A model generated the notes under the pieces. That model was not told the DNA's origin. It saw nothing but the letters and a program-made list of their open reading frames with translations, and made no database searches. Below are positions 7,326 to 30,850 of a stretch of DNA of 32,000 nucleotides, piece by piece. The stretch lies in the NCBI RefSeq assembly GCF_000012925.1, contig NC_007517.1, forward strand, positions 3,540,001 to 3,572,000, in the 5' to 3' direction. Source of the DNA: Geobacter metallireducens GS-15. Lineage in GTDB: Bacteria; Desulfobacterota; Desulfuromonadia; Geobacterales; Geobacteraceae. The position numbers and the translations under genes are program-made. Positions within the stretch are counted from its first letter, which is position 1. Every line of letters begins with the position of its first letter.

Positions 7326-8748
7326 TCTGCTCCCGGGCCGCCTTGGTCTCGTCGAGGCGGGTGACCGGCATGGTCCGGGGCATCTCGGCAAAGGCGGCCG
7401 GATCGGACTCGGCCAGTTCCGCCGCCTCGCGCATGACGGCGATGAAGGCGTCCAGGGTCTCCTTGCTCTCGGTCTCGGTGGGCTCGATCATGATCGCCTC
7501 CTTGACGATGAGCGGGAAGTAGACCGTGGGAGGATGGTAGCCCCGGTCGATGAGGAACTTGGCGATGTCGATGGCATGGACGCCGCTCTTCACCTGCCGG
7601 GCCGCCGAGAAGACGCACTCGTGCATGCAGGTCTGGTCATAGGGGAGGTCGTACACGTCCTTCAGGCGGTGCATCACGTAGTTGGCGTTCAGGACCGCCT
7701 GCTCGCTCACCTGGATGAGCCCCTCGCGGCCCACCATGGTGATGTAGGCAAAGGCCTTGGCCATGACCCCGAAGTTGCCGAAGAAGCCAGAGGTACGGCC
7801 GATGCTCCCGTGGGCCGGGGCATCGACCCCGTAGCAACCGTCGTCGTATTTCACGATCCGGGGAGAGGGAAGGAAGGGGACCAGTTGCTTCTTCACCCCG
7901 ACCGGGCCGCTCCCGGGACCGCCCCCGCCGTGGGGGGTGCCGAAGGTCTTGTGAAGGTTCAGATGGATCACATCGAATCCCACGTCGCCGGGGCGGACCT
8001 TGCCGAGGATGGCGTTCAGGTTGGCGCCGTCGTAGTACATGAGGGCGTCGTGGTCGTGGGCGATGTCGCAGATCTCCTGTATGTGGGGGTTGAAGAGCCC
8101 CAGGGTGTTGGGGCAGGTCATCATGACTGCCGCCACCTCGTCGGTCATCACCTCCCGGAATCTGTCCAGGTCCATGTCGCCGTAGGGGGCCGTCGGGACG
8201 GTGATGATCTCGTATCCCACCATGGTGGCGGAGGCCGGGTTGGTGCCATGGGAGGAGTCGGGGACCACCACGTACTTCTTCTTGTTCCCCTTGGCCTCGT
8301 GGTAGGCGGCGATGAGCATGATGCCGGTCATCTCGCCGTGGGCGCCGGCCAGGGGTTGGGTGGTCACCTCGTCCATGCCGGTGATCTCGGCGAGGGCCGC
8401 CCCCAGTTCATAGGCGAGCCCCAGGCACCCCTGGCTGAAGGAAGAGCCATGGGGAAGGAGCGGCACCATGGGATGGTAGGGGGCGAAGAGCCGCGCCGCC
8501 TCCTCCAGGACCTTGGCGTTGTACTTCATGGTACAGGAGCCCAGGGGGTAAAAATTGGTGTCCACCGAGAAGTTGCGGCGGGAGAGCCCCGTGAAGTGGC
8601 GCACCACGTCCAACTCGCTCGCCTCGGGGAGTGCCGCCGGCTCCTTCCGGCGAAGCGCCGCCGGAAGCTCCGGGGCAGCGGGGACGTCACTGGCCGGGAG
8701 GCGCACTCCCCTTCGGCCCGGGACCGATTTCTCATAGATCAGCTGCAT
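7303..8748 (-). CDS. gcvPB: Glycine dehydrogenase (decarboxylating) subunit 2
   Basis: [14 protein letters not shown]... matches the typical GcvPB N-terminus, with GGAGGG 6 nt upstream. The PLP region is HLNLHKTF. It overlaps the gcvPA stop by 10 nt. Confidence 0.95.
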
Positions 8749-10085
8749 AGGATACCCTCCAGGTGCCGGGCCAGGGTGTCGATCTCCTCCCGGGTCCGCT
8801 TCTCGGTCACGGTCACCACCATGCACCGCTCCATCTCCGGATAGTAGGGGCTCAGGGGAACACCGGCGGCGACCCCTTTCCGCAGGAGCGCCGTGACCAC
8901 CTCCTCGGCGATCGTGGGGAGACAGACGGTGAACTCGTTGAAGGTGGCACCGCCGTTCATCACCTCGACCCCAGAGAGGGAGCCGAGGACCTTTTTCGCG
9001 TACTCGGCCTTATCGTAGTTGAGCCGCGCCAGCTCCGCAAACCCCTGGGCGCCGAGACTGGAGAGAAAGATGAGCCCCCGCAGGGCGCAGAGGCTCTGGT
9101 TGCTGCAGATGTTGGAGGTGGCCTTGTGGCGCTTGATGTGCTGTTCACGGGCCTGAAGGGTGAGGACGAAGCCCCGTTGTCCCTTTTTGTCCACGGTCTC
9201 GCCGATGATCCGGCCCGGCAAGTTGCGGATGTACTCCTTGCGGCTGGCGATGAAGCCGAAGGAGGGCCCCCCGAAGGAGAGGGGGTTGCCAAGGCTCTGG
9301 CCGTCCCCCACCACGACATCGGCCCCCATGGCGCCGGGGCTCTCGATGAGCCCCAGGGCCACCGGGTAGGCGGAGACCACCAGGAGCGCCCCGGCGGCAT
9401 GGGCGTCGGCAGCCAGCTTGCGGAAGTCGCTCACGCTCCCGAAGAAGTTGGGGTTCTGGACGAGGACCGCGGCAGTGGCGTCGTCGATGGCGGCCCGGAG
9501 CCGCAGGTCGTCCTCCATGCCGAGCTTGGGCCCGATCTCCACCAGCTCCACGTCCAGGTTGGCCAGGTAGGTCCTGACGACCTCCCGGTGAAAGGGGTTC
9601 ACGGCCCCGTCGATGACGAGGCGGTTTCGCCCCGTGATCCGCAGGGCCATCATGGCCGCCTCAGCCAGGGCCGTGCCGCCGTCGTAGAGGGAGGCGTTGG
9701 AGACCTCCATGCCGGTGAGGCGGCAGATGGCGGTCTGGTACTCGAAGAGGGCCTGGAGGGTCCCCTGGGAGCATTCGGGCTGGTACGGGGTGTAGGCGGT
9801 GTAGAATTCGGCCCGCCCCGAAAGGTGGTCCACCACGGCCGGGATCAGGTGGTCGTAGTAGCCGCCGCCGACAAAGTGTGCGAGGTGCTGGGCGTTCTTC
9901 CCGGCCAGGTGCTCGAACCGGCGGAGCATCTCGAACTCGGACATCCCCGCAGGGAGATCAAAGGAGCGGGCCCGCAACCCCGGCGGAATCGGCTGGAACA
10001 GGTCGTCGATGCTCGCCGCGCCCATGGCGGCCAGCATCTCCCGTACCTCCTCTGGCGTGTTGGGGCAGTAGCTGGCAGTGCTCAT
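8739..10085 (-). CDS. gcvPA: Glycine dehydrogenase (decarboxylating) subunit 1
   Basis: 448 aa. YTPYQPE.SQG.LQ..FE.Q is the P-protein subunit-1 signature. It has an ATGA overlap with the gcvH stop. Confidence 0.95.
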
Positions 10086-10456
10086 CCGAGGCTCCTCACG
10101 TACTCGTCATACTGGTCGCGGGTCATGAGCTTCTGGAGCTCGGCCGGATCCTCCATGTCCATAATTGCCATCCAGCCGGCGTCCTCGGCCGCCTCGTTGA
10201 CGATCTCGGGGCGCTCTTCAAGGGCCTCGTTCACCTGGGTCACCGTGCCGGAAACCGGGGCGTAGATGTCGCTGGCCGCCTTCACCGACTCGATGGCCGC
10301 CAGGACCTCGAACTGCTTCACGACCTTACCCACTTTCGGAAGCTCCACGAAAGTCACATCCCCCAACTGGTGGGCCGCATGCTCGGTGATCCCCACCAAC
10401 GCAACTCCTTCCTTGACCTTGACCCACTCGTGCTCCTTGGTGAAATAGATTTCCAT
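10082..10456 (-). CDS. gcvH: Glycine cleavage system H protein
   Basis: 124 aa starting [14 protein letters not shown], preceded by AAGGAGGG. The lipoyl-lysine motif ESVKAASD is present. Confidence 0.95.
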
Positions 10457-11731: not shown

Positions 11732-12064
11732 TTACTCCACCTCCAACTCCTTCACCCGCAGCTCCTCCCCCGACACAACTCTCATGCCGTAGGCGCCACA
11801 GGCTGGACAGGGGTCGAAGTAGCCACGAACCGGAAATTCCTTTCCGCAGGAGGTGCATTCCCCACGACCCGGCACCCGCTCGATGACGAGCCGGGCACCC
11901 TCCAGGAGCGTATCCCGCGTGCAGGCCTCGAAGCAGAACTCGATCGCATCGGGGACCACGCCGGAGAGGTCGCCGATCTCCAGGGTCACCGCCAGGACCC
12001 GCCGCCCCCCGGCACTCTTCTCGCAGATCTCCACCACGCTCTGGGTTATGGACATCTCGTGCAT
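11732..12064 (-). CDS. hypA: Hydrogenase nickel-incorporation protein HypA
   Basis: 110 aa with the MHEMSI N-terminus (Ni site) and a CxxC...CxxC zinc site (CTSCG...CPACG). The ATG lies 6 nt after GGAAGGGGAG. The rest of track ORF 11732-12574 is unsupported. Confidence 0.9.
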   Translation of the reverse strand: MHEMSITQSVVEICEKSAGGRRVLAVTLEIGDLSGVVPDAIEFCFEACTRDTLLEGARLVIERVPGRGECTSCGKEFPVRGYFDPCPACGAYGMRVVSGEELRVKELEVE

Positions 12065-12236
12065 CTGCATCTCCCCTTCCGCAAAGCCCCGAGGGCCGTT
12101 TGTGCTTGAACGGGCATGATAGCAGAGCCGCCTCTCCGAGGAAAGAAAGGGATATACTTCCTTACTTCCTTGTCTCCACCGGCATGGGTAAGGTATACTT
12201 CCGCGGTATTTCACGCCGTTCTCCCCGAGGTTATCC

Positions 12237-13691
12237 ATGACCCTCAATACCAGGCTGGTTATGATCATGCTGACGCTCCTGGTCATCGCCATCCTCACGC
12301 TCTTCTTCCTGAACCAGTACAGCCAGAACGAGATGGTGCAGGAAATCCAGGAAAGCTCCACCATGGTGACCAAGGCCCTCCAGATGAGCATCGAGGACCT
12401 CACCTCCGAGTACGAGCCCGACCGGGGCCGCCTCACGGAGTACCTGAAGGAGGCGAAGGTCAAGGGGGTCAAGGAGATCAACATCTTCAGCAACGAGGGG
12501 GAGATTATCGACTCTTCGAACCCGGCGAAGATCGGGAAAAAGCGCGAGATCAAGAAGCTTGAGAAGGGTCTCAAGGTTTCCCCGGGGACGAAGACCGATG
12601 CCGGGTCGTCGCGGGCCTACGACCTGGTCGTTCCGGTCATCGTCGGCGACGAGCAGCTGGGCTATGTGCAGATTAACCTCCTCCTCGACAACATCCGCAC
12701 CATCCAGCACGAGAACTTCGTCAACCGGGTGGTGGCCACCTCCCTGGTCTTTCTCCTGGGCATATCCCTTACCATCTTCCTGGCAAAGCGCTACACCGCA
12801 CCCATCAACCACCTGGCGGACGGGGTGCGGCGGGTGGCCGTCGGGGACCTATCCGTCACGTTCCCGGTAACAACCGGTGATGAAATCGGTGAACTGGCCA
12901 AGAACTTCAACGAGATGGTGGAGAAGCTCCGGGAGAGGGAGATCCTCGAAAAGCGCCTCTACGAGGCCGAGCACCTCTCCCGGGTGGGGCAGCTCGCCTC
13001 GGGCATTGCCCACGAGATCCGAAACCCCCTCAACTACATCAGCCTCGCCATCGACCACCTGAAGAGCGAGTTTACGGCCGCCTGCCCGGACAAGACGGAG
13101 CGGGTCGTCCCCGTGGCCGACAAGATCAAGGAAGAGGTGCGGCGGGCCAACTACATGGTGGTCAACTTCATGAACTTCGGCCGCCCCCTGAAGTTGAGGA
13201 TAACGGAGATTTCCTACCGAGAGCTTATCGAAAAGGCGTTGCCGCTCCTTGAGGAAAAGCTCGCGGAACAGCGGGTAACGGTGCGCACCGCCATCCCCAC
13301 CGACCTTCCCGCCATGCGAGTCGACGGGGAGATGCTCCGCAACTGCCTCTTCAACTTCGTCACCAACGCCGCCCAGGCCATGCCCGACGGCGGCACCGTC
13401 ACCCTCGGCGCCACGTTCGACCGGGAGCAGAATCGCTTCCTCCTCACCTTCAGCGACGAGGGGTGCGGCATTCGGGAGGAGGACCTGGCGAAGGTATTCC
13501 AGCCCTGGTACACTACCCGCGAGGCCGGCATCGGCCTGGGCCTTGCCATCACCGAGCGGATCGTCCGGGAGCATGGGGGAGAAATCAGGGTGGCAAGCAG
13601 TGCCGGCAAGGGGACGACGTTTACGGTGCTTCTCCCCGGAGGGGAGAAGCCGGGACCGGGGACCAGGGACCGGGGACCAGGAAAAGACTAG
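12237..13691 (+). CDS. Sensor histidine kinase (2 TM segments + periplasmic domain, HAMP, HisKA, HATPase_c)
   Basis: Two hydrophobic segments flank a ~130-aa domain. It has a HAMP region (INHLADGVRRVAVGDL...ELAKNFNEM), an H-box (HEIRNPL), and N/G boxes (NAAQAM, DEGCGI, GIGLGL). The last ~11 residues are encoded by a heptamer repeat tract. Confidence 0.9.
   Translation: MTLNTRLVMIMLTLLVIAILTLFFLNQYSQNEMVQEIQESSTMVTKALQMSIEDLTSEYEPDRGRLTEYLKEAKVKGVKEINIFSNEGEIIDSSNPAKIGKKREIKKLEKGLKVSPGTKTDAGSSRAYDLVVPVIVGDEQLGYVQINLLLDNIRTIQHENFVNRVVATSLVFLLGISLTIFLAKRYTAPINHLADGVRRVAVGDLSVTFPVTTGDEIGELAKNFNEMVEKLREREILEKRLYEAEHLSRVGQLASGIAHEIRNPLNYISLAIDHLKSEFTAACPDKTERVVPVADKIKEEVRRANYMVVNFMNFGRPLKLRITEISYRELIEKALPLLEEKLAEQRVTVRTAIPTDLPAMRVDGEMLRNCLFNFVTNAAQAMPDGGTVTLGATFDREQNRFLLTFSDEGCGIREEDLAKVFQPWYTTREAGIGLGLAITERIVREHGGEIRVASSAGKGTTFTVLLPGGEKPGPGTRDRGPGKD
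13649..13681 (+). repeat. G-rich tandem heptamer tract A (GGGACCG GGGACCA x2) overlapping the kinase 3' end
   Basis: Read directly: GCCGGGACCGGGGACCAGGGACCGGGGACCAGG. Positions 13649-13666 are the exact reverse complement of 13754-13771. Confidence 0.85.
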
Positions 13692-13753
13692 AAACAAACG
13701 ACAGGGATCTAGCATGGGAAGAGGGATTGGGAGCAAAATCAGGTTTTACGTTA

Positions 13754-13786
13754 CTGGTCCCCGGTCCCGGCCTTTGCCGGTCCCTG
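13754..13786 (-). repeat. Inverted partner tract A' (CTGGTCCCCGGTCCCGGC ... CCGGTCCCTG) just upstream of the response-regulator RBS
   Basis: Read directly. It ends 5 nt before GAAGGAG (13792-13798), ahead of ATG 13803. Confidence 0.85.
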
Positions 13787-13802
13787 TCTCCGAAGGAGAC
13801 CA

Positions 13803-15191
13803 ATGACCGGAACCATTCTCATAGTTGACGACGAGCGGGCACAGCGGGAGATCATCCAGACGATCCTGGAGGGAGAAGGGTACCGCGTGGCAGCGGCTCC
13901 CGGAGGGCGCGAGGCCCTGGAGCAGCTCGAAACGAGCGAGTTCGACGTGATCCTCACGGACCTGAAGATGCAGGGGATGTCGGGGATGGAGCTCCTGGAG
14001 CGGGTCCTGGAGGCCGACCCCCTCCAGTGCGCCATCATGATGACCGCCCACGGCACCGTCGACTCGGCGGTGGAGGCCATGAAAAAGGGGGCCTTCGATT
14101 ATCTGGAGAAGCCCCTGGAGCGGGACAACCTCCTCCTCACCCTGCGCCGGGCCTTCGAGCGGGTGAATCTCCTGCGGGAGAACCGGGTCCTCCAGAAGCG
14201 GCTCAAGGAGACGAGCAGCATCCCCAACATCATCGGCGAACACCCGAAGATGCGGGAGGTCTTCCGGATCGTCACCAAGATCGCCCCCACCGCCTCAACA
14301 GTCCTCATCTACGGCGAGTCGGGGACCGGCAAGGAGCTGGTGGCCAAGGCGATCCACGACGGGAGCCCCCGGAAAGACAAGCCTTTCTTCGCCATAAACT
14401 GCGCCGCCATCCCCGAGAGCCTCATGGAGAGCGAGCTCTTCGGCCACGAGAAAGGGGCCTTCACCGGCGCCAGCTCCCGGGAGCTGGGAATTTTCGAGGC
14501 GGCCACCGGTGGGACGGTTTTCCTGGACGAAATCGGCGAGATGAGTGTGGCCATGCAGGCAAAGCTCCTGCGGGCCATCCAGTCGAAGGAGATCCGCCGG
14601 GTCGGGGGAAAGGTGAACATCCCCGTGGACGTGCGGATCATTTCCGCCACCAACCGGGACCTGGAGGCGGAGATCAAACGGGGGGGCTTCCGGGAGGACC
14701 TCTTCTACCGCCTGAACGTGATCCGGATCACTCTCCCCCCCCTGCGGGAGCGGGGGAGCGACATCGCGGCCCTGGCCGACTTCTTCGTGAAAAAGTGCAG
14801 CGCCCAGGCGGGAGTCACCGTCAGGGGGATCGCCAAACCGGCCCTGAAGCTCATCATGGACTACAGCTGGCCCGGCAACGTCCGGCAGTTGGAATCGGTC
14901 ATCGAGCGGGGGGCGCTCATGGCGGAAAGCGACCTGATCCAGCCCGAGGATCTGCCGGCCGAGATCACCGAAGGGCTCTCCCGGGCAGGATGGCTCCCCT
15001 TCGAGCTTCCCCCCGACGGAATCCAGTTCGATGAGCTGGAGCGCAACCTCATCATCAAGGCCATGGAACGGGCCGACTGGGTCATCGCCAAGGCGGCCCC
15101 GCTTCTGGGCATGAGCTACAAGACGCTTCAGTACCGGCTGGAGAAGTTCGAGATAGGCCGGGACCGGGGAACGGGGAACGGGGACCAGTAA
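13803..15191 (+). CDS. Sigma-54-dependent response regulator (REC + AAA+ + Fis-type HTH; NtrC family)
   Basis: REC domain (ILIVDDE ... TDLKM), Walker A (GESGTGKE), the GAFTGA sigma-54 contact loop (EKGAFTGA), and a C-terminal HTH (AAPLLGMSYKTLQYRL). The tail GRDRGTGNGDQ is encoded by heptamer tract B. Confidence 0.92.
   Translation: MTGTILIVDDERAQREIIQTILEGEGYRVAAAPGGREALEQLETSEFDVILTDLKMQGMSGMELLERVLEADPLQCAIMMTAHGTVDSAVEAMKKGAFDYLEKPLERDNLLLTLRRAFERVNLLRENRVLQKRLKETSSIPNIIGEHPKMREVFRIVTKIAPTASTVLIYGESGTGKELVAKAIHDGSPRKDKPFFAINCAAIPESLMESELFGHEKGAFTGASSRELGIFEAATGGTVFLDEIGEMSVAMQAKLLRAIQSKEIRRVGGKVNIPVDVRIISATNRDLEAEIKRGGFREDLFYRLNVIRITLPPLRERGSDIAALADFFVKKCSAQAGVTVRGIAKPALKLIMDYSWPGNVRQLESVIERGALMAESDLIQPEDLPAEITEGLSRAGWLPFELPPDGIQFDELERNLIIKAMERADWVIAKAAPLLGMSYKTLQYRLEKFEIGRDRGTGNGDQ
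15156..15188 (+). repeat. G-rich tandem heptamer tract B (GGGACCG GGGAACG GGGAACG GGGACCA) overlapping the regulator 3' end
   Basis: Read directly: GGCCGGGACCGGGGAACGGGGAACGGGGACCAG, followed by the TAA stop. Confidence 0.85.
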
Positions 15192-15280
15192 GAACCTTAC
15201 AATCTTTTCAGCACATACGAAAACGCCATCAACCAGTCAAATACGGAGGATGCAACGACCGACCGTGGATCAAGGGTTTT

Positions 15281-15305
15281 CCCGGTCCCCGGTCCCCGGT
15301 CCCGG
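15281..15305 (-). repeat. Inverted partner tract B' (CCCGGTCCCCGGTCCCCGGTCCCGG) overlapping the phosphorylase Shine-Dalgarno
   Basis: Read directly. Its last two G residues are the first two of GGAGG (15304-15308), ahead of ATG 15314. Positions 15293-15305 are the exact complement of 15158-15170. Confidence 0.85.
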
Positions 15306-15313
15306 AGGTTTCA

Positions 15314-17878
15314 ATGGACTTCACCAAGGGAATGCACCGTTTTACCGTTGTCCCGTCGCTGACCGGCGAACTGGCCAGACTCCAGACCATCGCCTACAAC
15401 CTCTGGTGGACTTGGGAGCCCGAGGCGGTGGAGCTCTTCAAGCGGCTCGACATCGACCTCTGGCAGCAGACCCGCCACAACCCGGTGGAGATGCTCGGTA
15501 TCCTCCAGCAGACCACCCTCGACAAGCTCACCACCGACGAGGGATTCATGTCCCAATTGAAACAGGTGGATGAGAAGTTCCGGGAATACCTCTCGGCCAG
15601 GACCTGGTTCGAGCGGACCTGCAACGGCGGCAGGCCCATGTCCGTCGCTTACTTCTCCATGGAGTTCGGTATCCACGAGTCGCTCCCCACCTATTCGGGG
15701 GGACTCGGAATCCTGGCCGGCGACCACCTGAAGTCGGCCAGCGACCTGGGGATTCCCCTGGTAGGAGTCGGACTCCTCTACCGGCAGGGCTACTTCCGCC
15801 AGTACCTGAACATTGAGGGGTGGCAGCAGGAACTCTACCCCGAAAACGACTTCTACAACCTCCCCCTCACCCTGGAGCGGGATGCTTCCGGCGCCCCCCT
15901 GGCCGTGGAACTCAACATGCCAAGCCGCAAGGTGACGGCCCACATCTGGCGGGTTCAGGTGGGGCGGGTCCCCCTCTACCTCCTGGACACGAACCTGGAG
16001 GAGAACGCCCCCGAGGACCGGGAGATCACGGCCCAGCTCTACGGCGGCGACCTGGAGATGCGGATCCGGCAGGAGATCCTCCTGGGGATCGGCGGCATCC
16101 GGGCCCTCCACCTCCTTGGGATCACCCCCAACGTCTGCCACATGAACGAGGGGCACGCGGCGTTTCTGGCCCTGGAGCGGACCCGCCTCCTCATGGAAGA
16201 GCACGGCATCCGGTTCGCCGAGGCCATGGAGGCGGTGCGGGCCGGCAACGTTTTCACCACCCACACCCCGGTGGATGCCGGCATCGACCACTTTCCCCCC
16301 GATCTCCTAGAGAAGTACCTGGGGCGCTACTACCGCTTCCTGGGCCTCTCCCGGGACGAGTTCCTGGCCTTGGGACGGATCAACCCCAAGAACTCCCACG
16401 AAGCGTTCTGCATGGCGGTCCTGGCCCTCAAGCTGGCCGACCATGCCAACGGCGTCTCCCAGCTCCATGGCGAGGTGTCGCGGCTCATGTGGAAGAACCT
16501 CTGGCCCGAGCTCCCCGACGAACATATCCCCATCACCTCGGTCACCAACGGAGTCCACACCAAGACCTGGCTCTCCAACGAGATGGCGGGGCTCCTCACC
16601 CGGTACCTCGGCAACCGCTGGCGCGAGGACGCCACCGATCCCCTGCTCTGGAAGCGGGTCGCCCACATCCCCGAATCGGAGCTCTGGCGGACCCACGAAC
16701 GGTGCCGCGAGCGGCTCGTCCTCTTCGCCCGCCGCCGCCTCAAGGACCACCTGAAGCAGGTGGGGGCCACGGCAAAAGAGATCGCCCAGGCCGACGAGGT
16801 TCTTGACCCGGAAGCCCTCACCATTGGCTTTGCCCGCCGCTTCGCCACCTACAAGCGAGGGACCCTTCTCTTCCGGGACCTGGCGCGGCTGGAAAAAATC
16901 CTGGGGAGCACCGACCGGCCGGTGCAGATCATCTTTGCCGGCAAGGCCCACCCCCACGACACCGAAGGGAAGGAGCTGATCCGGGAGATCTTCCAGCATT
17001 CCCTCGACAGTCGGTTCCGGGGACGGATCGTCTTCATCGAGGACTACGACATGGCCGTGGCCCGGCACCTGGTCCAGGGGGTCGACGTCTGGCTCAACAC
17101 CCCCCGCCGCCCCCTGGAGGCCAGCGGCACCAGCGGCATGAAGGTGGCCTTCAACGGCGGCCTCAACATGAGCATCCTCGACGGCTGGTGGCCCGAGGGG
17201 TACCAGGGGAACAATGGCTGGGCCATCGGCAAAGGAGAGGTCTACGACGACCTCGATTACCAGAACGAAGTAGAGGGACGGGCCATCTATGACCTGCTGG
17301 AGAAAGAAGTGGTCCCCCTCTTCTACGACCGGGGCCCCGACGGCATCCCCCGCGGCTGGCTCGCCTTCATGAAGGCAAGCCTCCAGACCCTCTGCCCCCT
17401 TTTCAGCACCGAGCGGATGGTTCAGGAGTACACCAGGACCATGTACCGTCCCTCCTTCGCCCACTGGGAGATGCTCTCGGCGGACGGCCTGGCCCTGGCA
17501 GTGGATCTCGCCGGCTGGAAGGGGGATATCCGCCGCACCTGGCACCAGGTAAGGATTGCGGGGATCGAAGCCAAGACCCCCACCGAGGTCCCGTTGGGGG
17601 CGGTAATTCCGGTGACGGTGAACATTATCCTCGGCGACATCCCCCCCGACCAGCTTTCCGCGGATCTCTACTGCGGGGTCCTGGACTCCCGAGGGAACAT
17701 CGTCGGAGGAGAACTGGTTCCCCTTGCCTGGGAAGAAGCGACAGGGGACGGTGCCCACCGCTTCTACGGCGAGATCGAGAGCCGCTTCTGCGGCAGGCAC
17801 GGCTTCATGGTGCGGGTCATGCCCCGCCACCCGAAGCTGGGGCCGGTCTACGAGCAGGGAAGTATTGCGTGGGGGTGA
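15314..17878 (+). CDS. glgP: Alpha-glucan (glycogen/maltodextrin) phosphorylase, GT35, long N-terminal-domain type
   Basis: 854 aa. AYFSMEFG...GGLG.LAGDHLKSASDLG, TNGVH...W and the PLP-Lys region EASGTSGMK are phosphorylase signatures. Confidence 0.9.
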   Translation: MDFTKGMHRFTVVPSLTGELARLQTIAYNLWWTWEPEAVELFKRLDIDLWQQTRHNPVEMLGILQQTTLDKLTTDEGFMSQLKQVDEKFREYLSARTWFERTCNGGRPMSVAYFSMEFGIHESLPTYSGGLGILAGDHLKSASDLGIPLVGVGLLYRQGYFRQYLNIEGWQQELYPENDFYNLPLTLERDASGAPLAVELNMPSRKVTAHIWRVQVGRVPLYLLDTNLEENAPEDREITAQLYGGDLEMRIRQEILLGIGGIRALHLLGITPNVCHMNEGHAAFLALERTRLLMEEHGIRFAEAMEAVRAGNVFTTHTPVDAGIDHFPPDLLEKYLGRYYRFLGLSRDEFLALGRINPKNSHEAFCMAVLALKLADHANGVSQLHGEVSRLMWKNLWPELPDEHIPITSVTNGVHTKTWLSNEMAGLLTRYLGNRWREDATDPLLWKRVAHIPESELWRTHERCRERLVLFARRRLKDHLKQVGATAKEIAQADEVLDPEALTIGFARRFATYKRGTLLFRDLARLEKILGSTDRPVQIIFAGKAHPHDTEGKELIREIFQHSLDSRFRGRIVFIEDYDMAVARHLVQGVDVWLNTPRRPLEASGTSGMKVAFNGGLNMSILDGWWPEGYQGNNGWAIGKGEVYDDLDYQNEVEGRAIYDLLEKEVVPLFYDRGPDGIPRGWLAFMKASLQTLCPLFSTERMVQEYTRTMYRPSFAHWEMLSADGLALAVDLAGWKGDIRRTWHQVRIAGIEAKTPTEVPLGAVIPVTVNIILGDIPPDQLSADLYCGVLDSRGNIVGGELVPLAWEEATGDGAHRFYGEIESRFCGRHGFMVRVMPRHPKLGPVYEQGSIAWG

Positions 17879-17879
17879 A

Positions 17880-17918
17880 GACCGGGACCGGGGATCGGGG
17901 ATCGGAAACATCCCGGTC
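17880..17918 (+). repeat. Heptamer tract C (GGGACCG GGGATCG GGGATCG G) plus a short inverted arm, directly after the phosphorylase stop
   Basis: Read directly. GACCGGGA (17880-17887) is complementary to TCCCGGTC (17911-17918). Confidence 0.8.
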
Positions 17919-17974
17919 GCGCAGCCTGGGGTCTCTCCCTTCAAGTTTCTGCCGTTTCGGCCGATACGTATGAC

Positions 17975-19693
17975 ATGATCATCACCCAGGACATAGCCCG
18001 GATCGCCCAGGCCCTCCTCAAAGACACCACCGGTTCCCTGGTGGAGGCCACCTGGCAGTCCCTTACCCCCCTTAACCTCACGCCGGGACAGATGGTCCAC
18101 GGCGAGGTCATGGCGAACTTCGCCAACAGCCGCTACCTGGTGAGAATCGCCAACGAGCTCCTCCACATGGAGCTTCCCCTCAACCTCCAGCCGGGCCAGG
18201 CAGTGGAGCTCACCTACGTCACCGACGAGCCCCGGCTGGTCTTTTCCCTGTCGAAGTCGGGCAATTCCGCGACGCCCGTCCAGATCAGCGACACAGGGCG
18301 CTGGCTCAACACCCTGGCCCAGGGGACCGGCGGCACACAGGCCGCGAGCTCTCTCCCCCGCCCTTCCCTCGTAATCTCGGGCCCTCCCCGGGACCCGGCC
18401 CTCCTGGCCGAGGGGTTGAAGAACGTCCTCAGCCGGAGCGGAGTCTTCTACGAATCCCACCTGGCCCAGTGGGTGCAGGGGGAATATCCCCTTACCGACC
18501 TCCTCCGGGAGCCCCAGGGGCAACTCTCCCCCCTTGCCGGCCGGCTCCCGGCCGAGGGAAACGGGGCAACCACGACACTTCATGGCGTCCGGGTTTCTCC
18601 TGGCGAGACGCCACCGGCGCCGGCGCCTCCAGCTGTGACGCCAGGACTACCTCTCGAGGAAGGCGTCACTCCACCCCCCCCACGAACCATCGCGGAGGGG
18701 AGTCCGTCCGCACCAGGGAACGCCGCCCCCGACGCGGCACCCCGGCAGGGGGAAACTCCGCCCTCTCCCGACACCCCGAAAGGGGGCCAGACGACCTCAG
18801 CAGCGCCCCGAGACCCCCTTCCCCAAACGGCTATTTCGCCCCAGAACCAGCCCCAGGCCCCGGGACGGCCAGGAGCGCCTGCACCTCTCCCTGCGGAGCC
18901 TCAGGGAGGCGTGGCCACGACCTCACCAGACCCCGAGACCGTCGACGCACCGCCGGCCGCCCCGCAAAACGCAGCGGCACCGACCGGAGCCCCCCTGCCA
19001 AAATCTGTTGGTGAGGTTCCCGGTCAACAGCTTGCAACGACGGTTCTCCAGGGGGGGCAGCCACCTCAACCGCGGGACACCGTTGTCCCGAACCCTACGG
19101 AATTCGGGCACCCCGCCCCGGCATCATCACCGGACGCACGCCCCCAGACAGAAGGCCACCCACAGTCCCTCCTTAGGGACGGAGCAGCAGCCACATCCCC
19201 CGGCAGGGCGTCCTCTCCTCCCCCCCTCCCCGGAACGCCGGAGGGAGGAGCACGAGTTGTAATTCCCGGAGAGACCGCGCCAACCAGCCGGGGCGCAATG
19301 GGCCGGCTGGGGGAGCCACCGCCTCCCGCAGGCATTGAGTCCCAGACCATCCCCATCATCAAGGAGCAGCTCACCACCCTCACCACCGGCGTCTTCACCT
19401 GGTTCGGCCAGGCCTGGCCCGGCCAGGACATGGAATGGAAGGTGGAGGAGCGGGAGGCGGAAGGGGGTAAGGGGGAGCGGTCGTGGCTGACCGAGGTGGC
19501 CGTGGAGTTGCCAAGCCTGGGGGCTGTCCGGGCAACCCTCCGTGCGGGAAAGGAGGGGATCGGTGTGACCCTGGTTGCGGAAGACGGACGGACGGCGGAG
19601 ATTCTTGCGGCAGGGCAGAATGGCCTTGATGAGCGGTTCGACGCCGCAGGGCTGCGGCTCGGCGGTTTTACGGTGAGAGATGGATCACAGTGA
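17975..19693 (+). CDS. FliK-like (hook-length-control-like) protein with a long Pro-rich central region
   Basis: The C-terminal block VAVELPSLGAVRATLRAGKEGIGVTLVAEDGRTAEILAAGQNGLDERFDAAGLRLGGFTV resembles the FliK C-terminal (Flg_hook) domain. The SGVFYESHLAQW motif recurs in FliK-like proteins as I recall. About 250 aa are P/A/G/T-rich. The start has no clear SD and is uncertain. Confidence 0.6.
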   Translation: MIITQDIARIAQALLKDTTGSLVEATWQSLTPLNLTPGQMVHGEVMANFANSRYLVRIANELLHMELPLNLQPGQAVELTYVTDEPRLVFSLSKSGNSATPVQISDTGRWLNTLAQGTGGTQAASSLPRPSLVISGPPRDPALLAEGLKNVLSRSGVFYESHLAQWVQGEYPLTDLLREPQGQLSPLAGRLPAEGNGATTTLHGVRVSPGETPPAPAPPAVTPGLPLEEGVTPPPPRTIAEGSPSAPGNAAPDAAPRQGETPPSPDTPKGGQTTSAAPRDPLPQTAISPQNQPQAPGRPGAPAPLPAEPQGGVATTSPDPETVDAPPAAPQNAAAPTGAPLPKSVGEVPGQQLATTVLQGGQPPQPRDTVVPNPTEFGHPAPASSPDARPQTEGHPQSLLRDGAAATSPGRASSPPPLPGTPEGGARVVIPGETAPTSRGAMGRLGEPPPPAGIESQTIPIIKEQLTTLTTGVFTWFGQAWPGQDMEWKVEEREAEGGKGERSWLTEVAVELPSLGAVRATLRAGKEGIGVTLVAEDGRTAEILAAGQNGLDERFDAAGLRLGGFTVRDGSQ

Positions 19694-29776: not shown

Positions 29777-30850
29777 TTAACCGAGTACGGCGAGGCATTC
29801 ATCAATCACAGCAAGGAACTCCTCCAGGTCGGAACGCTGCATATCCCCCATATGGGGAATCCGGAAGGTCTTCCCCTTGATCTTGCCGTAGCCGTCGTCA
29901 AAGGCGAAGCCCCGCTCGCCAAGCATCTTTTTGAGGCTAGCAAGATCGGTGCCACGGGAGTTTACGGCACAGGTAAGGGTCATGGAACGGTAGGCCTCCT
30001 CGGCGAAGAAACCGTACCCGCGGTCCGACACCCAGCCCCGCACGAAGTCGGCCAGGGCCCGATGCCTGGCCCAGCGTTGTTCGAACCCCTCGGCGAACAT
30101 CCGCTCCAGCTGCTTGTCCATGGCGTAGATCAGCGAAATGCACGGGGTGGAGGGCGTATTGTTCTTGGCGTCGCTTGCCTCGAATTCGAGGAAATCGAAG
30201 TAGTAGCCGCGCCCCTCGACGGTGCGGGCCCGGGCCAGCGCTTTTTCGCTCGCCGTAAAAACGGCAAGGCCGGGAGGAAGCGCGAAGGCCTTCTGGACGC
30301 CGAAAATGCAGCAGTCGATGCCGAGTTCATCCACCGGAATCGGGAGGGCGCTCATGGAAGAGACGGTGTCGATGATGGAGACCACATCAGGGTACTTTCG
30401 AAGCACCGCGGCGATCTCCGGCAGGGGGGACATGACGCCGGTTGATGTTTCGTTGTGGATAAGGGTAAGGCTGTCGTATTTTCCCGTGGCCAGTGCCTCG
30501 TCAACCAGTTCCGCGGTAATCGGCTTTCCCCATTCCACCTTGACCGCATCGGCCTCTTTGCCGCAACGACGCGTCACATCGTGCCACTTGTCGGAAAAAG
30601 CGCCGTTGCAGAAATTGACGCAGCGCCCTGCCACCAGGTTGCGCACCGCCCCTTCCATGGCGCCGAAGGCGCTGGAAGTCGAGAGAAAAACCTTCGCCTC
30701 GGTTGCGAGGAGCTTTTTGAGCCCCGTCGTCACCCTGCCGTGGAGAGTTGCGTACTCCGCCATCCGGTGGCCGACCATGGGGGTCGCCATTGCCTGAAGG
30801 ATATCGGGATGGACCTCAACCGGTCCGGGGATAAAAAGCTTCTTTGCCAT
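29777..30850 (-). CDS. Class-V PLP aminotransferase (alanine/serine-glyoxylate aminotransferase family)
   Basis: 357 aa from the ATG preceded by GAGGAG. It has an FIPGPV N-terminus, an IHNETSTGV block, and a PLP-lysine context (FGVQKAF). Confidence 0.85.
   Translation of the reverse strand: MAKKLFIPGPVEVHPDILQAMATPMVGHRMAEYATLHGRVTTGLKKLLATEAKVFLSTSSAFGAMEGAVRNLVAGRCVNFCNGAFSDKWHDVTRRCGKEADAVKVEWGKPITAELVDEALATGKYDSLTLIHNETSTGVMSPLPEIAAVLRKYPDVVSIIDTVSSMSALPIPVDELGIDCCIFGVQKAFALPPGLAVFTASEKALARARTVEGRGYYFDFLEFEASDAKNNTPSTPCISLIYAMDKQLERMFAEGFEQRWARHRALADFVRGWVSDRGYGFFAEEAYRSMTLTCAVNSRGTDLASLKKMLGERGFAFDDGYGKIKGKTFRIPHMGDMQRSDLEEFLAVIDECLAVLG

What the first reader, a model, noticed from the sequence alone, without database searches (positions are those of the whole stretch)
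15156..15308. Second inverted heptamer pair; its distal arm overlaps the phosphorylase Shine-Dalgarno
GGCCGGGACCGGGGAACGGGGAACGGGGACCAG (15156-15188) ends the response-regulator gene. Its inverted partner CCCGGTCCCCGGTCCCCGGTCCCGG (15281-15305) runs directly into GGAGG (15304-15308) of the alpha-glucan phosphorylase.

A perfect 13-bp helix (15158-15170 with 15293-15305) extends imperfectly to ~25 bp. Pairing would partly occlude the SD and loop out ~120 nt.

The same architecture at two consecutive gene junctions makes coincidence unlikely. It links kinase, sigma-54 regulator and glycogen phosphorylase into one structured transcript.
Basis: seen in the sequence. Interest (0 to 1): 0.7.

Follow-up and report, generated by a model that had tools for sequence, protein, structure and literature searches.

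The report
Known dispersed heptamer repeat pair
The inverted GGGACC-heptamer pair between the regulator gene and the glycogen phosphorylase gene is real, but it is one copy of a dispersed repeat family already catalogued in Geobacter metallireducens and seen in many other bacteria, not a switch built for this operon.

Summary
A G-rich array of four heptamers (15156-15188) forms the last codons of the sigma-54 response regulator. An inverted C-rich array (15281-15305) abuts the phosphorylase GGAGG/ATG. Together they give a 13-bp perfect helix that extends to 25 bp.

The window is G. metallireducens GS-15, at about 3,540,001-3,572,000. The distal arm is the annotated element Gmet_H445, and the proximal arm of pair A is Gmet_H444. 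Both belong to the published family of 49 elements with "four GGGACCG repeats" (Aklujkar 2009).

The layout matches the quadruplex-forming heptamer repeat class of Rehm et al. 2015:
- about four units per array;
- convergent G-then-C pairs;
- the G strand at or just after a stop codon;
- the C strand just before the next start codon;
- placement between co-directional genes.

I found GGGACC arrays with this layout in Xanthomonadales, Acidobacteriota, Gemmatimonadota and other Geobacteraceae.

At this junction the arrays come and go among close relatives. They are identical in G. grbiciae, degenerate in G. sulfurreducens, one-armed or absent in 96% and 93% relatives, and absent in G. pickeringii.

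The predicted mRNA helix (-81 kcal/mol) would bury the glgP SD and AUG, so a local effect on translation is plausible. It is untested and is not conserved.

The parts
15156..15188 (+). Proximal G-rich array. It has four heptamer units (GGGACC G / GGGAAC G / GGGAAC G / GGGACC, core 15160-15186) with a GGCC lead-in. It encodes the last 11 residues of the response regulator (GRDRGTGNGDQ) and is not in the published list of 49 elements.
   Evidence: The Pfam HTH_8 domain ends at residue 449 of 462, so the tail lies outside all domains. Orthologues without arrays end ..EKFGIEKP(G)*.
15189..15191 (+). TAA stop codon of the response-regulator gene (Gmet_3158), 2 nt after the array.
15192..15280 (+). 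Spacer between the arms. It has no homology to spacers of other pairs and holds no promoter-like, sigma-54 or terminator-like motif.
15274..15318 (-). Annotated element Gmet_H445 (genome 3555274-3555318, minus strand). Its core is the C-rich array CCCGGTCCCCGGTCCCCGGTCCCGG at 15281-15305. On the template strand it reads as four G-tracts.
   Evidence: Fig S2 and Table S4 of PMC2700814. The sequence matches the reverse complement of the window.
15304..15316 (+). glgP translation initiation region: GGAGG at 15304-15308 and ATG at 15314-15316. In the MFE structure G15304-G15305 close the 13-bp helix. A15306-G15307 and 15313-15315 lie in small internal loops between helices.
15143..15154 (+). Outward extension of the predicted helix, inside RR coding sequence (..EKFEI). 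It pairs with 15308-15312 and 15316-15322. The pairing probably reflects codon content (AAG TTC against GAC TTC) and is not shown to be selected.
   Evidence: Orthologue sequences were inspected.
13650..13683 (+). Pair A proximal G-array. It is the core of annotated Gmet_H444 (13644-13688), four units at 13652-13678, and encodes part of the histidine-kinase tail (..GEKPGPGTRDRGPGKD*).
13756..13784 (-). Pair A distal C-array remnant: GGTCCCCGGTCCCGGCC at 13756-13772 plus GGTCCC at 13779-13784, upstream of the RR SD and ATG (13803). It is also 16/16 complementary to 15155-15170, so the RR gene itself is bracketed by a C-arm and a G-arm.
   Evidence: (I5, I7, I10).
17884..17918 (+). Third junction element. 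A G-array GGGACCGGGGATCGGGGATCGG (17884-17905) starts 5 nt after the glgP TGA (17876-17878). A 9-nt C-remnant ATCCCGGTC follows at 17910-17918. GS-15 has 3 units and G. grbiciae has 4.
12237..19693 (+). Co-directional gene run that carries the three junction elements: HK 12237-13691 (HAMP/HisKA/HATPase_c), sigma-54 RR 13803-15191, alpha-glucan phosphorylase 15314-17878 and FliK-like 17975-19693.
   Evidence: Named Gmet_3157, Gmet_3158 and Gmet_3159 in Table S4.

Best explanation
What it is (about 0.97 sure). This is one convergent pair of a dispersed family of G-rich heptamer micro-arrays, (GGGACCR) in about four units. In G. metallireducens the family is catalogued as Gmet_H401-H449; the distal arm is Gmet_H445 and the proximal arm is an uncatalogued degenerate copy. 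The family is the GGGACC-type counterpart of the quadruplex-forming heptamer repeats of Xanthomonas and Nostoc.

These arrays settle at cistron boundaries. A G-rich array lies on the sense strand at, or 5-8 nt after, a stop codon. An inverted C-rich array lies just before the next start codon. They turn over quickly: they extend reading frames, change unit number, and are gained and lost between close relatives.

How it most likely works here (inferred, about 0.4). The HK-RR-glgP genes are read as one mRNA. As soon as the C-arm is transcribed it pairs with the G-arm about 100 nt upstream. The result is an interrupted GC-rich helix of 25 to 37 bp that encloses the spacer and buries the glgP SD and AUG.

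The whole G-arm lies inside the last RR codons, so a ribosome finishing RR must melt the helix. glgP initiation would then be coupled to RR translation. Alternatively, a helix this long is a plausible substrate for a double-strand RNase such as RNase III, which would separate the cistrons and free the SD.

Any such effect is a by-product of where a spreading repeat landed. It is not a conserved, purpose-built riboregulator.

The confidence given for this entry (0.45) is for the whole statement, mechanism included. The identity part alone stands at about 0.97.
For: Identity:
- The coordinates and sequences of Gmet_H444 and Gmet_H445 match the window at an offset of 3,540,000.
- Table S4 places them 3' of Gmet_3157/5' of Gmet_3158 and 3' of Gmet_3158/5' of Gmet_3159.

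Family behaviour:
- Almost all H4 elements lie between co-directional genes or in gene ends or fusions.
- From the Fig S2 coordinates I count 11 (+)(-) pairs within 500 nt and no (-)(+) pairs.
- In 120 loci from other genomes, neighbouring arrays are +- in 46 cases and -+ in 8.
- The modal size is 4 units, in 94 of 199 arrays.
- 53% of arrays have a long ORF ending within 60 nt in the G orientation, against 17% at random positions. The stops peak 5-8 nt upstream of the array.

Turnover:
- RR tails are ..EIGRDRGTGNGDQ* (Gmet, G. grbiciae)..ITRDQGP* (G. sulfurreducens)..ISRDRQ* (L124)..IEKPG* (G. pickeringii) and ..ILKPD* (L125).
- The third array has 3 units in GS-15 and 4 in G. grbiciae.

Helix:
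- MFE is -81.2 kcal/mol, z = -4.8.
- The arm duplex is -54.7 kcal/mol. The hairpin wins over a G4 once the C-arm exists.
- There is no promoter, terminator or sigma-54 motif in the junction.
- G. sulfurreducens keeps a paired, degenerate version with a GGGGCC/GGCCCC double change.
Against: - There are no transcript, structure-probing or expression data for this locus. Co-transcription rests only on the absence of motifs.
- The two GGGGAAC units create A.G mismatches yet preserve all four G-tracts, which fits G4 selection better than helix selection.
- A 96%-identical relative keeps a four-unit C-arm but only one G unit. 93% and 84% relatives have no arrays at all. Any regulatory effect is therefore dispensable.
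- Partner arms are only marginally more alike than non-partner arms, and that comparison is confounded by lineage.
- Transition mismatches are not biased toward G.U in the sense strand. In the bottom-sense pairs there were 6 A.C and 0 G.U, a small sample with a heuristic strand call.
- Many family members are singletons without a partner.
- A hairpin alone does not explain why the G-arm always comes first, or why A4 of the unit is so conserved.
Confidence: 0.45

Rival explanations
1. G-quadruplex element. The functional form is a four-tract G4, not the hairpin. It would form on the sense RNA or non-template DNA at the RR 3' end, and on the template DNA strand just upstream of glgP. There it would pause or block RNA polymerase or ribosomes, or recruit G4-binding proteins, and so insulate neighbouring cistrons.
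For: - The mode of four units equals the minimum for an intramolecular G4 (Rehm et al.).
- Both arms here keep four G-tracts of at least 3 G although the proximal arm has mutated loops.
- The isolated G-arm RNA prefers a G4 in G4-aware folding, -13.3 against -9.1 kcal/mol. The template-strand DNA of the C-arm does too, -9.6 against -7.1.
- Relative L124 retains a four-unit array upstream of glgP without a full partner.
- Related heptamer repeats form G4s in vitro by CD.
- Singleton arrays exist.
Against: - Once both arms are in one RNA the hairpin is far more stable, -81 against about -29 kcal/mol.
- The C-rich RNA cannot form a G4.
- The strong excess of convergent pairs (46 to 8) is not needed for G4s.
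- Conservation of the loop base A4 is not explained.
- Many copies have only 3 units or broken tracts, including the 3-unit third array here.
Confidence: 0.25
2. Neutral or selfish simple-sequence repeat. The arrays arise and spread by slippage, template switching or gene conversion. They persist only where they do least harm, at cistron boundaries and in disordered protein tails. They have no selected function at this locus.
For: - Presence and absence vary among 93-99% relatives, and unit number is polymorphic.
- There is no association with particular gene functions (Rehm et al.).
- Arrays can be read through in all frames as Gly/Pro/Asp/Arg/Thr tails, as in HK, RR and Xanthomonadaceae carA.
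- Copies cluster at neighbouring junctions, which suggests local spread.
Against: - Slippage alone does not explain the same heptamer at about 50 to 190 sites per genome.
- It does not explain the sharp preference for four units.
- It does not explain the fixed G-then-C polarity or the 5-8 nt spacing from stop codons across phyla.
- Rehm et al. report increased, not decreased, local genomic stability.
Confidence: 0.2
3. Dedicated operon riboregulator. The pair would have evolved specifically to occlude the glgP SD and to tie kinase, regulator and phosphorylase into one structured, regulated transcript.
For: - The helix overlaps the SD and AUG.
- There are no internal promoter or terminator motifs.
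- A similar long-range pairing is predicted in G. sulfurreducens, with z = -2.0.
Against: - The element is a generic family copy.
- It is absent or one-armed in close relatives with the same gene order.
- No Rfam family matches.
- Covariation gives no support.
Confidence: 0.08
4. DNA-binding sites or a mobile element. Either the heptamer arrays are arrays of sites for an unidentified global regulator or nucleoid protein (as Aklujkar et al. suggested), or they are the terminal inverted repeats of a MITE- or REPIN-like mobile unit.
For: - The conserved GGGA core and unit A4 suggest sequence-specific recognition.
- Xanthomonadales and Geobacter-like arrays share flanks..GCC on the outer side and GGAAAAGC on the inner side.
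- Paired inverted arms resemble TIRs.
- In two Xanthomonadaceae a 23S_rRNA_IVP gene sits between the arms, between carA and carB.
Against: - Spacers range from 18 to 460 nt and are not homologous. There is no fixed element length and no target-site duplication.
- A single array is not palindromic, unlike REP.
- No transposase or RAYT link is known (Rehm et al.).
- A 7-bp period does not fit helical phasing for typical dimeric regulators.
- No candidate protein has been identified.
Confidence: 0.07

Closest known systems
[quoted passage not shown] 2009, PMC2700814)
   Same: The distal arm is Gmet_H445 itself and pair A's proximal arm is Gmet_H444. Heptamer, four units, flanks (..GGCC | units | GGGAAAACC) and junction location all agree.
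   Different: The proximal arm of this pair (GGGGAAC variant), pair A's distal remnant and the third array after glgP are not in the published list. H444 and H445 were listed as singletons, but each has a degenerate inverted partner. The paper treated the family as specific to G. metallireducens, whereas remnants exist in G. sulfurreducens and full arrays in other genera and phyla.
Quadruplex-forming heptamer repeats of Xanthomonas (GGGAATC/GGGNATC) and Nostoc (GGGGA(C/T)T), Rehm et al. 2015 (PMC4692102)
   Same: G-rich heptamers with a GGGA core and a preference for four units. Frequent convergent plus/minus pairs. Intergenic between co-directional ORFs. [quoted passage not shown] High turnover between related species. 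Function unknown. The third array in this window even contains GGGGATC units.
   Different: The unit here is GGGACCR, with loop ACC(R) instead of AATC. The host is a Desulfuromonadota species not covered by that study. G4 formation has not been measured for this unit. There are about 50 listed copies per genome against about 185.
REP / BIME / REPIN elements of enterobacteria and pseudomonads (from my own knowledge: Newbury et al. 1987; Bertels and Rainey 2011; Liang, Rudd and Deutscher 2015)
   Same: Short GC-rich dispersed repeats at 3' ends and intercistronic junctions. They are often inverted doublets that fold into hairpins in operon mRNAs, protect upstream RNA from 3' exonucleases, and affect the upstream gene when they lie within about 15 nt of its stop codon.
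   Different: A REP unit is itself an imperfect palindrome with a GTAG-type head and is mobilised by a RAYT transposase. Here a single arm is a non-palindromic tandem heptamer array, the spacer is variable, and no RAYT link is known or tested.
Correia/NEMIS and ERIC-type MITEs whose terminal repeats form RNase III-cleaved hairpins in co-transcribed mRNAs (from my own knowledge: De Gregorio et al. 2002-2006); also Chunjie, a MITE in a G. uraniireducens operon
   Same: Inverted arms enclose a short insert within operons. They form a long dsRNA stem that could be processed, uncoupling or coupling the neighbouring cistrons.
   Different: MITEs have a conserved internal sequence, a fixed length and target-site duplications. 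None of these is seen here.
Translational coupling through long-range mRNA pairing, as in RNA phage MS2 coat-replicase and several ribosomal-protein operons (from my own knowledge)
   Same: The upstream ORF's 3' codons pair with the downstream initiation region, so translation of the first ORF opens the second.
   Different: Those structures are conserved and locus-specific. This one is built from a generic repeat and is not conserved in relatives.

Membership tests
Gmet_H4xx four-heptamer elements (Aklujkar 2009) | Listed copy at defined GS-15 coordinates and strand | tested here: met
   Gmet_H445 (-) 3555274-3555318 is the reverse complement of window 15274-15318. Gmet_H444 (+) 3553644-3553688 is window 13644-13688.
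Gmet_H4xx four-heptamer elements (Aklujkar 2009) | Four tandem GGGACCG-type heptamers with family flanks | tested here: met
   The distal arm has 3 full units plus flanking GGG tracts, with CCTCC|..|GGGAAAACCC flanks. The proximal arm has 4 units, 2 of them GGGGAAC, with GGCC|..|AG flanks. It is a degenerate copy and is not in the list.
G4-forming heptamer SSR class (Rehm 2015) | G-rich heptamer unit with a G tract of at least 3; arrays prefer four units | tested here: met
   Units are GGGACCR. The window arrays have 4, 3(+), 4, 2 and 3 units. The mode is 4 in 199 arrays from 121 sequences, with the caveat that the scan required 3 perfect units.
G4-forming heptamer SSR class (Rehm 2015) | Convergent plus/minus pairs in close proximity | tested here: met
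   All three junctions in the window follow this layout. Neighbouring arrays are 46 +- against 8 -+ in other genomes. Fig S2 gives 11 +- pairs and 0 -+.
G4-forming heptamer SSR class (Rehm 2015) | [quoted passage not shown] | tested here: met
   The proximal arm overlaps the RR 3' end, with the stop 2 nt after it. The distal arm ends 8 nt before the ATG. Family-wide, stops peak 5-8 nt upstream of the array.
G4-forming heptamer SSR class (Rehm 2015) | Oligonucleotides fold into K+-dependent G-quadruplexes in vitro; repeats are transcribed | not testable with these tools
   Only an energy-model prediction is available: G4 -13.3 against hairpin -9.1 kcal/mol for the isolated G-arm. No CD or RNA-seq data for G. 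metallireducens were available.
REP / REPIN | Each unit is an imperfect palindrome (its own hairpin) with a conserved GTAG-type head | tested here: not met
   A single arm is a direct tandem array without self-complementarity or a GTAG head.
REP / REPIN | Cognate RAYT (IS200/IS605-like) transposase gene in the genome | not tested
Rehm et al. found no association with mobile elements.
MITE (Correia/ERIC/Chunjie type) | Conserved internal sequence, fixed length, target-site duplication | tested here: not met
   Spacers range from 18 to 460 nt and are non-homologous, both between pairs A and B in the window and across 46 pairs. No direct repeats flank the arms.
Curated cis-regulatory RNA families (Rfam 15) | Covariance-model match at or above the gathering score | tested here: not met
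   Only a spurious mir-H1 hit (27.8 bits against a gathering score of 97) on both strands of 15157-15306.
Intrinsic terminator | Short GC stem-loop followed by a T-run | tested here: not met
   No terminator-like site lies in 13600-13810, 15150-15320 or 17870-17975. There is no T-run after the C-arm.

The most novel reading that the evidence does not exclude
The paired heptamer arrays are a cross-phylum cistron-boundary module. The G-arm sits at the stop codon and the C-arm at the next start, and together they form a structural switch between a G4 (before the C-arm is made) and a helix of at least 25 bp. That helix would be read by terminating ribosomes or cut by RNase III, like an rRNA intervening sequence. 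Two observations are in line with this: a 23S_rRNA_IVP gene sits inside such a pair between carA and carB, and transcript ends occur at repeats of at least 4 units on either strand in Xanthomonas. The module would set relative expression of neighbouring genes in operons, and would be spread or recognised by a still-unknown protein that reads the conserved GGGA core.
Probability: 0.12. Interest if true: 0.65.

Novelty: already known. Interest (0 to 1): 0.3.

Why it matters
For this locus it matters little. The distal arm has been an annotated repeat since 2009, and relatives with the same genes do without it.

The wider question is still open. G-rich heptamer arrays of about four units sit at stop and start codons of operon genes in Geobacter, Xanthomonadales, cyanobacteria (Rehm et al.) and, as found here, Acidobacteriota and Gemmatimonadota. 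It is not known why, or whether the active form is a hairpin, a quadruplex or nothing at all.

This junction would make a clean test case:
- the G-arm lies wholly inside an ORF;
- the C-arm touches the next SD;
- natural variants exist with both arms, one arm, degenerate arms and no arms.

I found no paper in the searchable library that links the Geobacter H4 elements to the G4-repeat class.

Tried and rejected
- Rfam scan of 13000-18500 at E <= 1 found nothing meaningful.
- The sigma-70 promoter and intrinsic terminator scan of 12000-18200 found nothing in the junctions. The only promoter-like site lies upstream of HK.
- A sigma-54 -24/-12 search found no site in the junctions, so a bEBP-driven glgP promoter inside the spacer is not supported.
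- An exact-protein look-up of the RR to identify the source was not on record. The source was identified from the published coordinates instead.
- A full-text search for the repeat sequence strings gave 0 papers. Searches for Gmet_3157-3159 gave 0 papers. A search for G. metallireducens with G-quadruplex gave nothing relevant.
- Partner-arm complementarity test on 36 pairs: only a marginal excess over non-partners (0.92 against 0.90 identity; N7 agreement 61% against 50%), confounded by lineage. It is not usable as covariation evidence.
- Sense-strand wobble test: no excess of G.U over A.C. The bottom-sense class gave 0 against 6. The sample is small and the strand assignment heuristic, so I treat it as inconclusive and leaning against helix selection.
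- The outer-helix 'covariation' (AAG TTC / GAC TTC against AAA TTC / GAT TTT in relatives) was considered and dismissed as a by-product of Lys-Phe and Asp-Phe codons.
- KOPS- or Chi-like replication polarity was rejected because the (+) and (-) copies in Fig S2 show no replichore polarity.
- DUS/USS-like uptake sequences and integron attC sites were considered from memory and rejected on copy number and sequence form.
Full report
OBSERVATION

- GGCCGGGACCGGGGAACGGGGAACGGGGACCAG occupies 15156-15188 and is followed by TAA at 15189-15191, the stop of ORF 13803..15191.
- CCCGGTCCCCGGTCCCCGGTCCCGG occupies 15281-15305 and runs into GGAGG (15304-15308). The ATG of ORF 15314..17878 lies 5 nt further on.
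- The repeat finder reports 25-nt arms with 92% complementarity (I4).
- RNAfold of 15140-15330 gives -81.2 kcal/mol, z = -4.8, with 0 of 200 shuffles as stable. It contains the stated perfect 13-bp helix (15158-15170 with 15293-15305), extended by two 6-bp segments.
- The fold also pairs 15143-15154 with 15308-15312 and 15316-15322. In the MFE the SD and the AUG therefore sit in 2-3-nt internal loops of an interrupted helix of about 37 bp.
- The heptamer-dimer pattern occurs 12 times in the window against 1.8 expected.
- All copies lie at three consecutive junctions. HK|RR has 13652-13678 (+) and 13756-13772 (-). RR|glgP is the pair under review. glgP|fliK has 17884-17905 (+), starting 5 nt after the stop, with a 9-nt C-remnant at 17910-17918.

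IDENTITY OF THE WINDOW AND OF THE ELEMENT

A full-text search led to the G. metallireducens genome paper (PMC2700814). [quoted passage not shown]
- In its Figure S2, Gmet_H444 (+, 3553644-3553688) is identical to window 13644-13688.
- Gmet_H445 (-, 3555274-3555318) is the reverse complement of window 15274-15318.
- Table S4 places them between Gmet_3157 (sensor kinase), Gmet_3158 (sigma-54 response regulator) and Gmet_3159 (alpha-glucan phosphorylase).
- The window is therefore GS-15, about 3,540,001-3,572,000. G. grbiciae is 99% identical here but differs at diagnostic bases.
- Pfam confirms the gene identities. The HTH_8 domain of the regulator ends at residue 449 of 462, so the array-encoded tail lies outside all domains.

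The distal arm of this finding is thus a catalogued element. The proximal arm, the distal remnant of pair A and the third array are degenerate copies that the catalogue missed.

WHAT THE FAMILY LOOKS LIKE

In GS-15:
- Nearly all H4 elements are '3' of gene X, 5' of gene X+1', meaning co-directional junctions, or they lie within gene ends or fused genes.
- From the Fig S2 coordinates I count 11 (+)(-) pairs within 500 nt and no (-)(+) pair.
- Another kinase/sigma-54-regulator locus, Gmet_2562-2564, carries pairs at both of its junctions.

The 'same architecture at two consecutive junctions' is therefore a family habit, not a property of this operon.

It returned 120 loci from Xanthomonadales, Wenzhouxiangella, Acidobacteriota, Gemmatimonadota, Planctomycetota, actinomycetes and several Geobacteraceae. 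In these loci:
- The modal array has four units, 94 of 199. Arrays of 5 or more units are easier to detect yet rarer. The 3-versus-4 comparison is biased by the scan pattern.
- Neighbouring arrays within 500 nt are +- in 46 cases and -+ in 8.
- In the G orientation, 53% of arrays have an ORF of at least 150 codons ending within 60 nt, against 17% at random positions. The stops pile up 5-8 nt before the array or just after it.
- Spacers range from 18 to 460 nt and are unrelated to one another.
- Xanthomonadales and Geobacter-like arrays share flanks..GCC on the outer side and GGAAAAGC on the inner side.

Exactly these rules were published for GGGAATC repeats in Xanthomonas and GGGGA(C/T)T repeats in Nostoc (Rehm et al. 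2015, PMC4692102):
- four units preferred;
- 70-75 convergent pairs per genome;
- 89-93% intergenic, mostly between aligned ORFs;
- G4 formation in vitro;
- most copies transcribed;
- transcripts starting or stopping at G4-capable repeats on either strand;
- function unknown.

That paper mentions neither Geobacter nor GGGACC. The third array in this window mixes GGGACC and GGGGATC units, as do several other loci, which links the unit types.

COMPARATIVE EVIDENCE AT THIS JUNCTION

The gene order hypA(-)|HK|RR|glgP|fliK is conserved in G. grbiciae, G. pickeringii and G. sulfurreducens. The arrays vary:
- G. grbiciae has the same arrays. Pair A carries one C-to-T change, and the third array has 4 units instead of 3.
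- G. sulfurreducens has two-unit degenerate arms at RR|glgP: CCCGGGACCAGGGGCCGTGA ... CGGCCCCTTCCCCGGTCCCGGAGG. It has none at HK|RR. Its arms still pair in the MFE, with a GGGGCC/GGCCCC double change (z = -2.0).
- A metagenomic relative with 96% identity in the first 300 residues of GlgP keeps a four-unit C-arm abutting GGAGG but only one G unit.
- A 93% relative has a 20-nt junction with no arrays.
- G. pickeringii and more distant Geobacteraceae have none.

Regulator C-termini track this pattern:
- ..EKFEIGRDRGTGNGDQ* in G. metallireducens and G. grbiciae
- ..GITRDQGP* in G. sulfurreducens
- ..GISRDRQ* in L124
- ..GIEKPG* in G. pickeringii
- ..GILKPD* in L125

The arrays have been gained, lost and resized within this clade, and they have overwritten the native gene ends.

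MECHANISM

Shown:
- The arms can pair very stably, -54.7 kcal/mol for the arm duplex.
- Any G-arm can pair with any C-arm in the operon, -48 to -60 kcal/mol.
- The isolated G-arm prefers a three-layer G4 in a G4-aware energy model, -13.3 against -9.1 kcal/mol.
- The hairpin dominates once both arms are present.
- No promoter-like, sigma-54 or terminator-like motif lies in the junctions.
- No Rfam family matches.

Inferred:
- The three genes are co-transcribed.
- The C-arm pairs with the G-arm as it emerges and buries the glgP SD and AUG.
- Because the entire G-arm lies within the last RR codons, a terminating ribosome must open the helix. This would couple glgP initiation to RR translation.
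- A helix of at least 25 bp is also a plausible RNase III substrate. That would fit the transcript ends seen at repeats of at least 4 units on both strands in Xanthomonas.
- It would also fit the 23S_rRNA_IVP gene found inside such a pair between carA and carB in two Xanthomonadaceae.

I put about 0.4 on a hairpin-mediated effect of this kind, 0.25 on a G4 being the relevant form, 0.2 on no selected function, and under 0.1 each on a dedicated riboregulator or on a protein-site/mobile-element explanation.

Evidence against helix selection:
- The two GGGGAAC units break pairs but keep the G-tracts.
- The partner-arm excess is marginal and confounded by lineage.
- Transition mismatches are not biased to G.U in the sense strand.
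- One-armed and armless relatives exist.

VERDICT

Novelty: already known, as Gmet_H445 and as the G4-type heptamer repeat class.

- The listed 'singletons' H444 and H445 each have a degenerate inverted partner.
- The GGGACC type is widespread across phyla and follows the same positional rules.
- The Geobacter catalogue and the Xanthomonas/Nostoc G4-repeat literature describe the same kind of element.

Function remains untested.

Noticed in passing
L001-L120 (genome-contig scan), e.g. L011 313-446, L065 7239-7328, L078 6005-6108, L079 1288-1391, L099 6639-6781: GGGACCR heptamer arrays are not specific to G. metallireducens. They occur, often several per genome, in Xanthomonas translucens, X. 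populi, X. codiaei, Pseudoxanthomonas, Stenotrophomonas, Rhodanobacteraceae, Wenzhouxiangella, Vicinamibacterales, Thermoanaerobaculia, Gemmatimonadota, Planctomycetota and other Geobacteraceae. They show the same four-unit mode, G-then-C pairing and stop-codon adjacency.
   Followed up: partly
L040 6427-6866 and L024 5209-5645: In Pseudoxanthomonas wuyuanensis and Xanthomonas codiaei a 134-136-aa gene of the 23S_rRNA_IVP / four-helix-bundle family (PF05635, E about 1e-36) sits between carA and carB, exactly bracketed by a four-unit G-arm and a four-unit C-arm. The tails of carA and of the small gene read through the arrays. The layout resembles an rRNA intervening sequence, a long stem with an ORF in the loop.
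   Followed up: partly
window 17884-17905 vs L121 about 8570-8615: The array after the glgP stop has 3 units in GS-15 (GGGACCGGGGATCGGGGATCGG) and 4 in G. grbiciae (an extra GGGGACCA unit), although the genomes are about 99% identical here. This is unit-number polymorphism typical of a simple-sequence repeat. The stop codon also differs, TGA against TAA.
   Followed up: no
window 13644-13691 and 15153-15191; L040 5079..6470: Arrays are translated into short Gly/Pro/Asp/Arg/Thr tails outside the Pfam domains: HK ..GEKPGPGTRDRGPGKD*, RR ..GRDRGTGNGDQ*, and Xanthomonadaceae CarA ..RDRGPGTGDRGKVP*. The heptamer array has no stop codon in any of the six frames, so it can be absorbed into ORF ends or fuse genes. 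Table S4 lists a ddl-ftsQ fusion linker and a cobQ fusion.
   Followed up: partly
window 13756-13773 with 15155-15170; 15279-15305 with 17880-17905: Each of the RR and glgP genes is itself bracketed by a C-arm upstream and a G-arm downstream. The 13758-13773 / 15155-15170 match is 16/16 complementary, and duplex energies are -48 and -60 kcal/mol. Alternative long-range pairings that circularise a whole cistron are therefore thermodynamically possible in a polycistronic RNA.
   Followed up: partly
Xanthomonadales vs Geobacter-like arrays: The two groups share flank consensus beyond the heptamers, with outer ..GCC and inner (C/G)GGAAAAGC, whereas Acidobacteriota arrays do not. The flanks could be decayed units, or they could hint at a common origin or a common recognising factor.
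   Followed up: no
L037 3450-3721, L053 7094-7183, L101 1205-1385, L001 1932-2021: Very long arrays of 13-26 units of GGGACCA or GGGACCG occur in a Planctomycetota MAG and a Kitasatospora genome. They are unlike the four-unit junction elements and may be ordinary minisatellites or coding repeats.
   Followed up: no
window 29939-29954 (-): There is a perfect match to the sigma-54 promoter consensus, TGGCACCGATCTTGCT (0 mismatches). It is the only one in the window and is unrelated to the finding.
   Followed up: no
L010 7407-7492, L030 3276-3360, L081 3478-3543: In some pairs the spacer between the arms contains what looks like an intrinsic terminator, a GC hairpin followed by a T-rich stretch. 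In those cases the arrays bracket a terminator rather than an open intercistronic spacer.
   Followed up: no
L122 (G. pickeringii) 8565-10400: G. pickeringii lacks all three junction arrays. HK and RR overlap (ATGA), and three small minus-strand ORFs lie between glgP and a truncated Flg_hook gene. A PhdYeFM/ParE toxin-antitoxin pair sits upstream of hypA.
   Followed up: no
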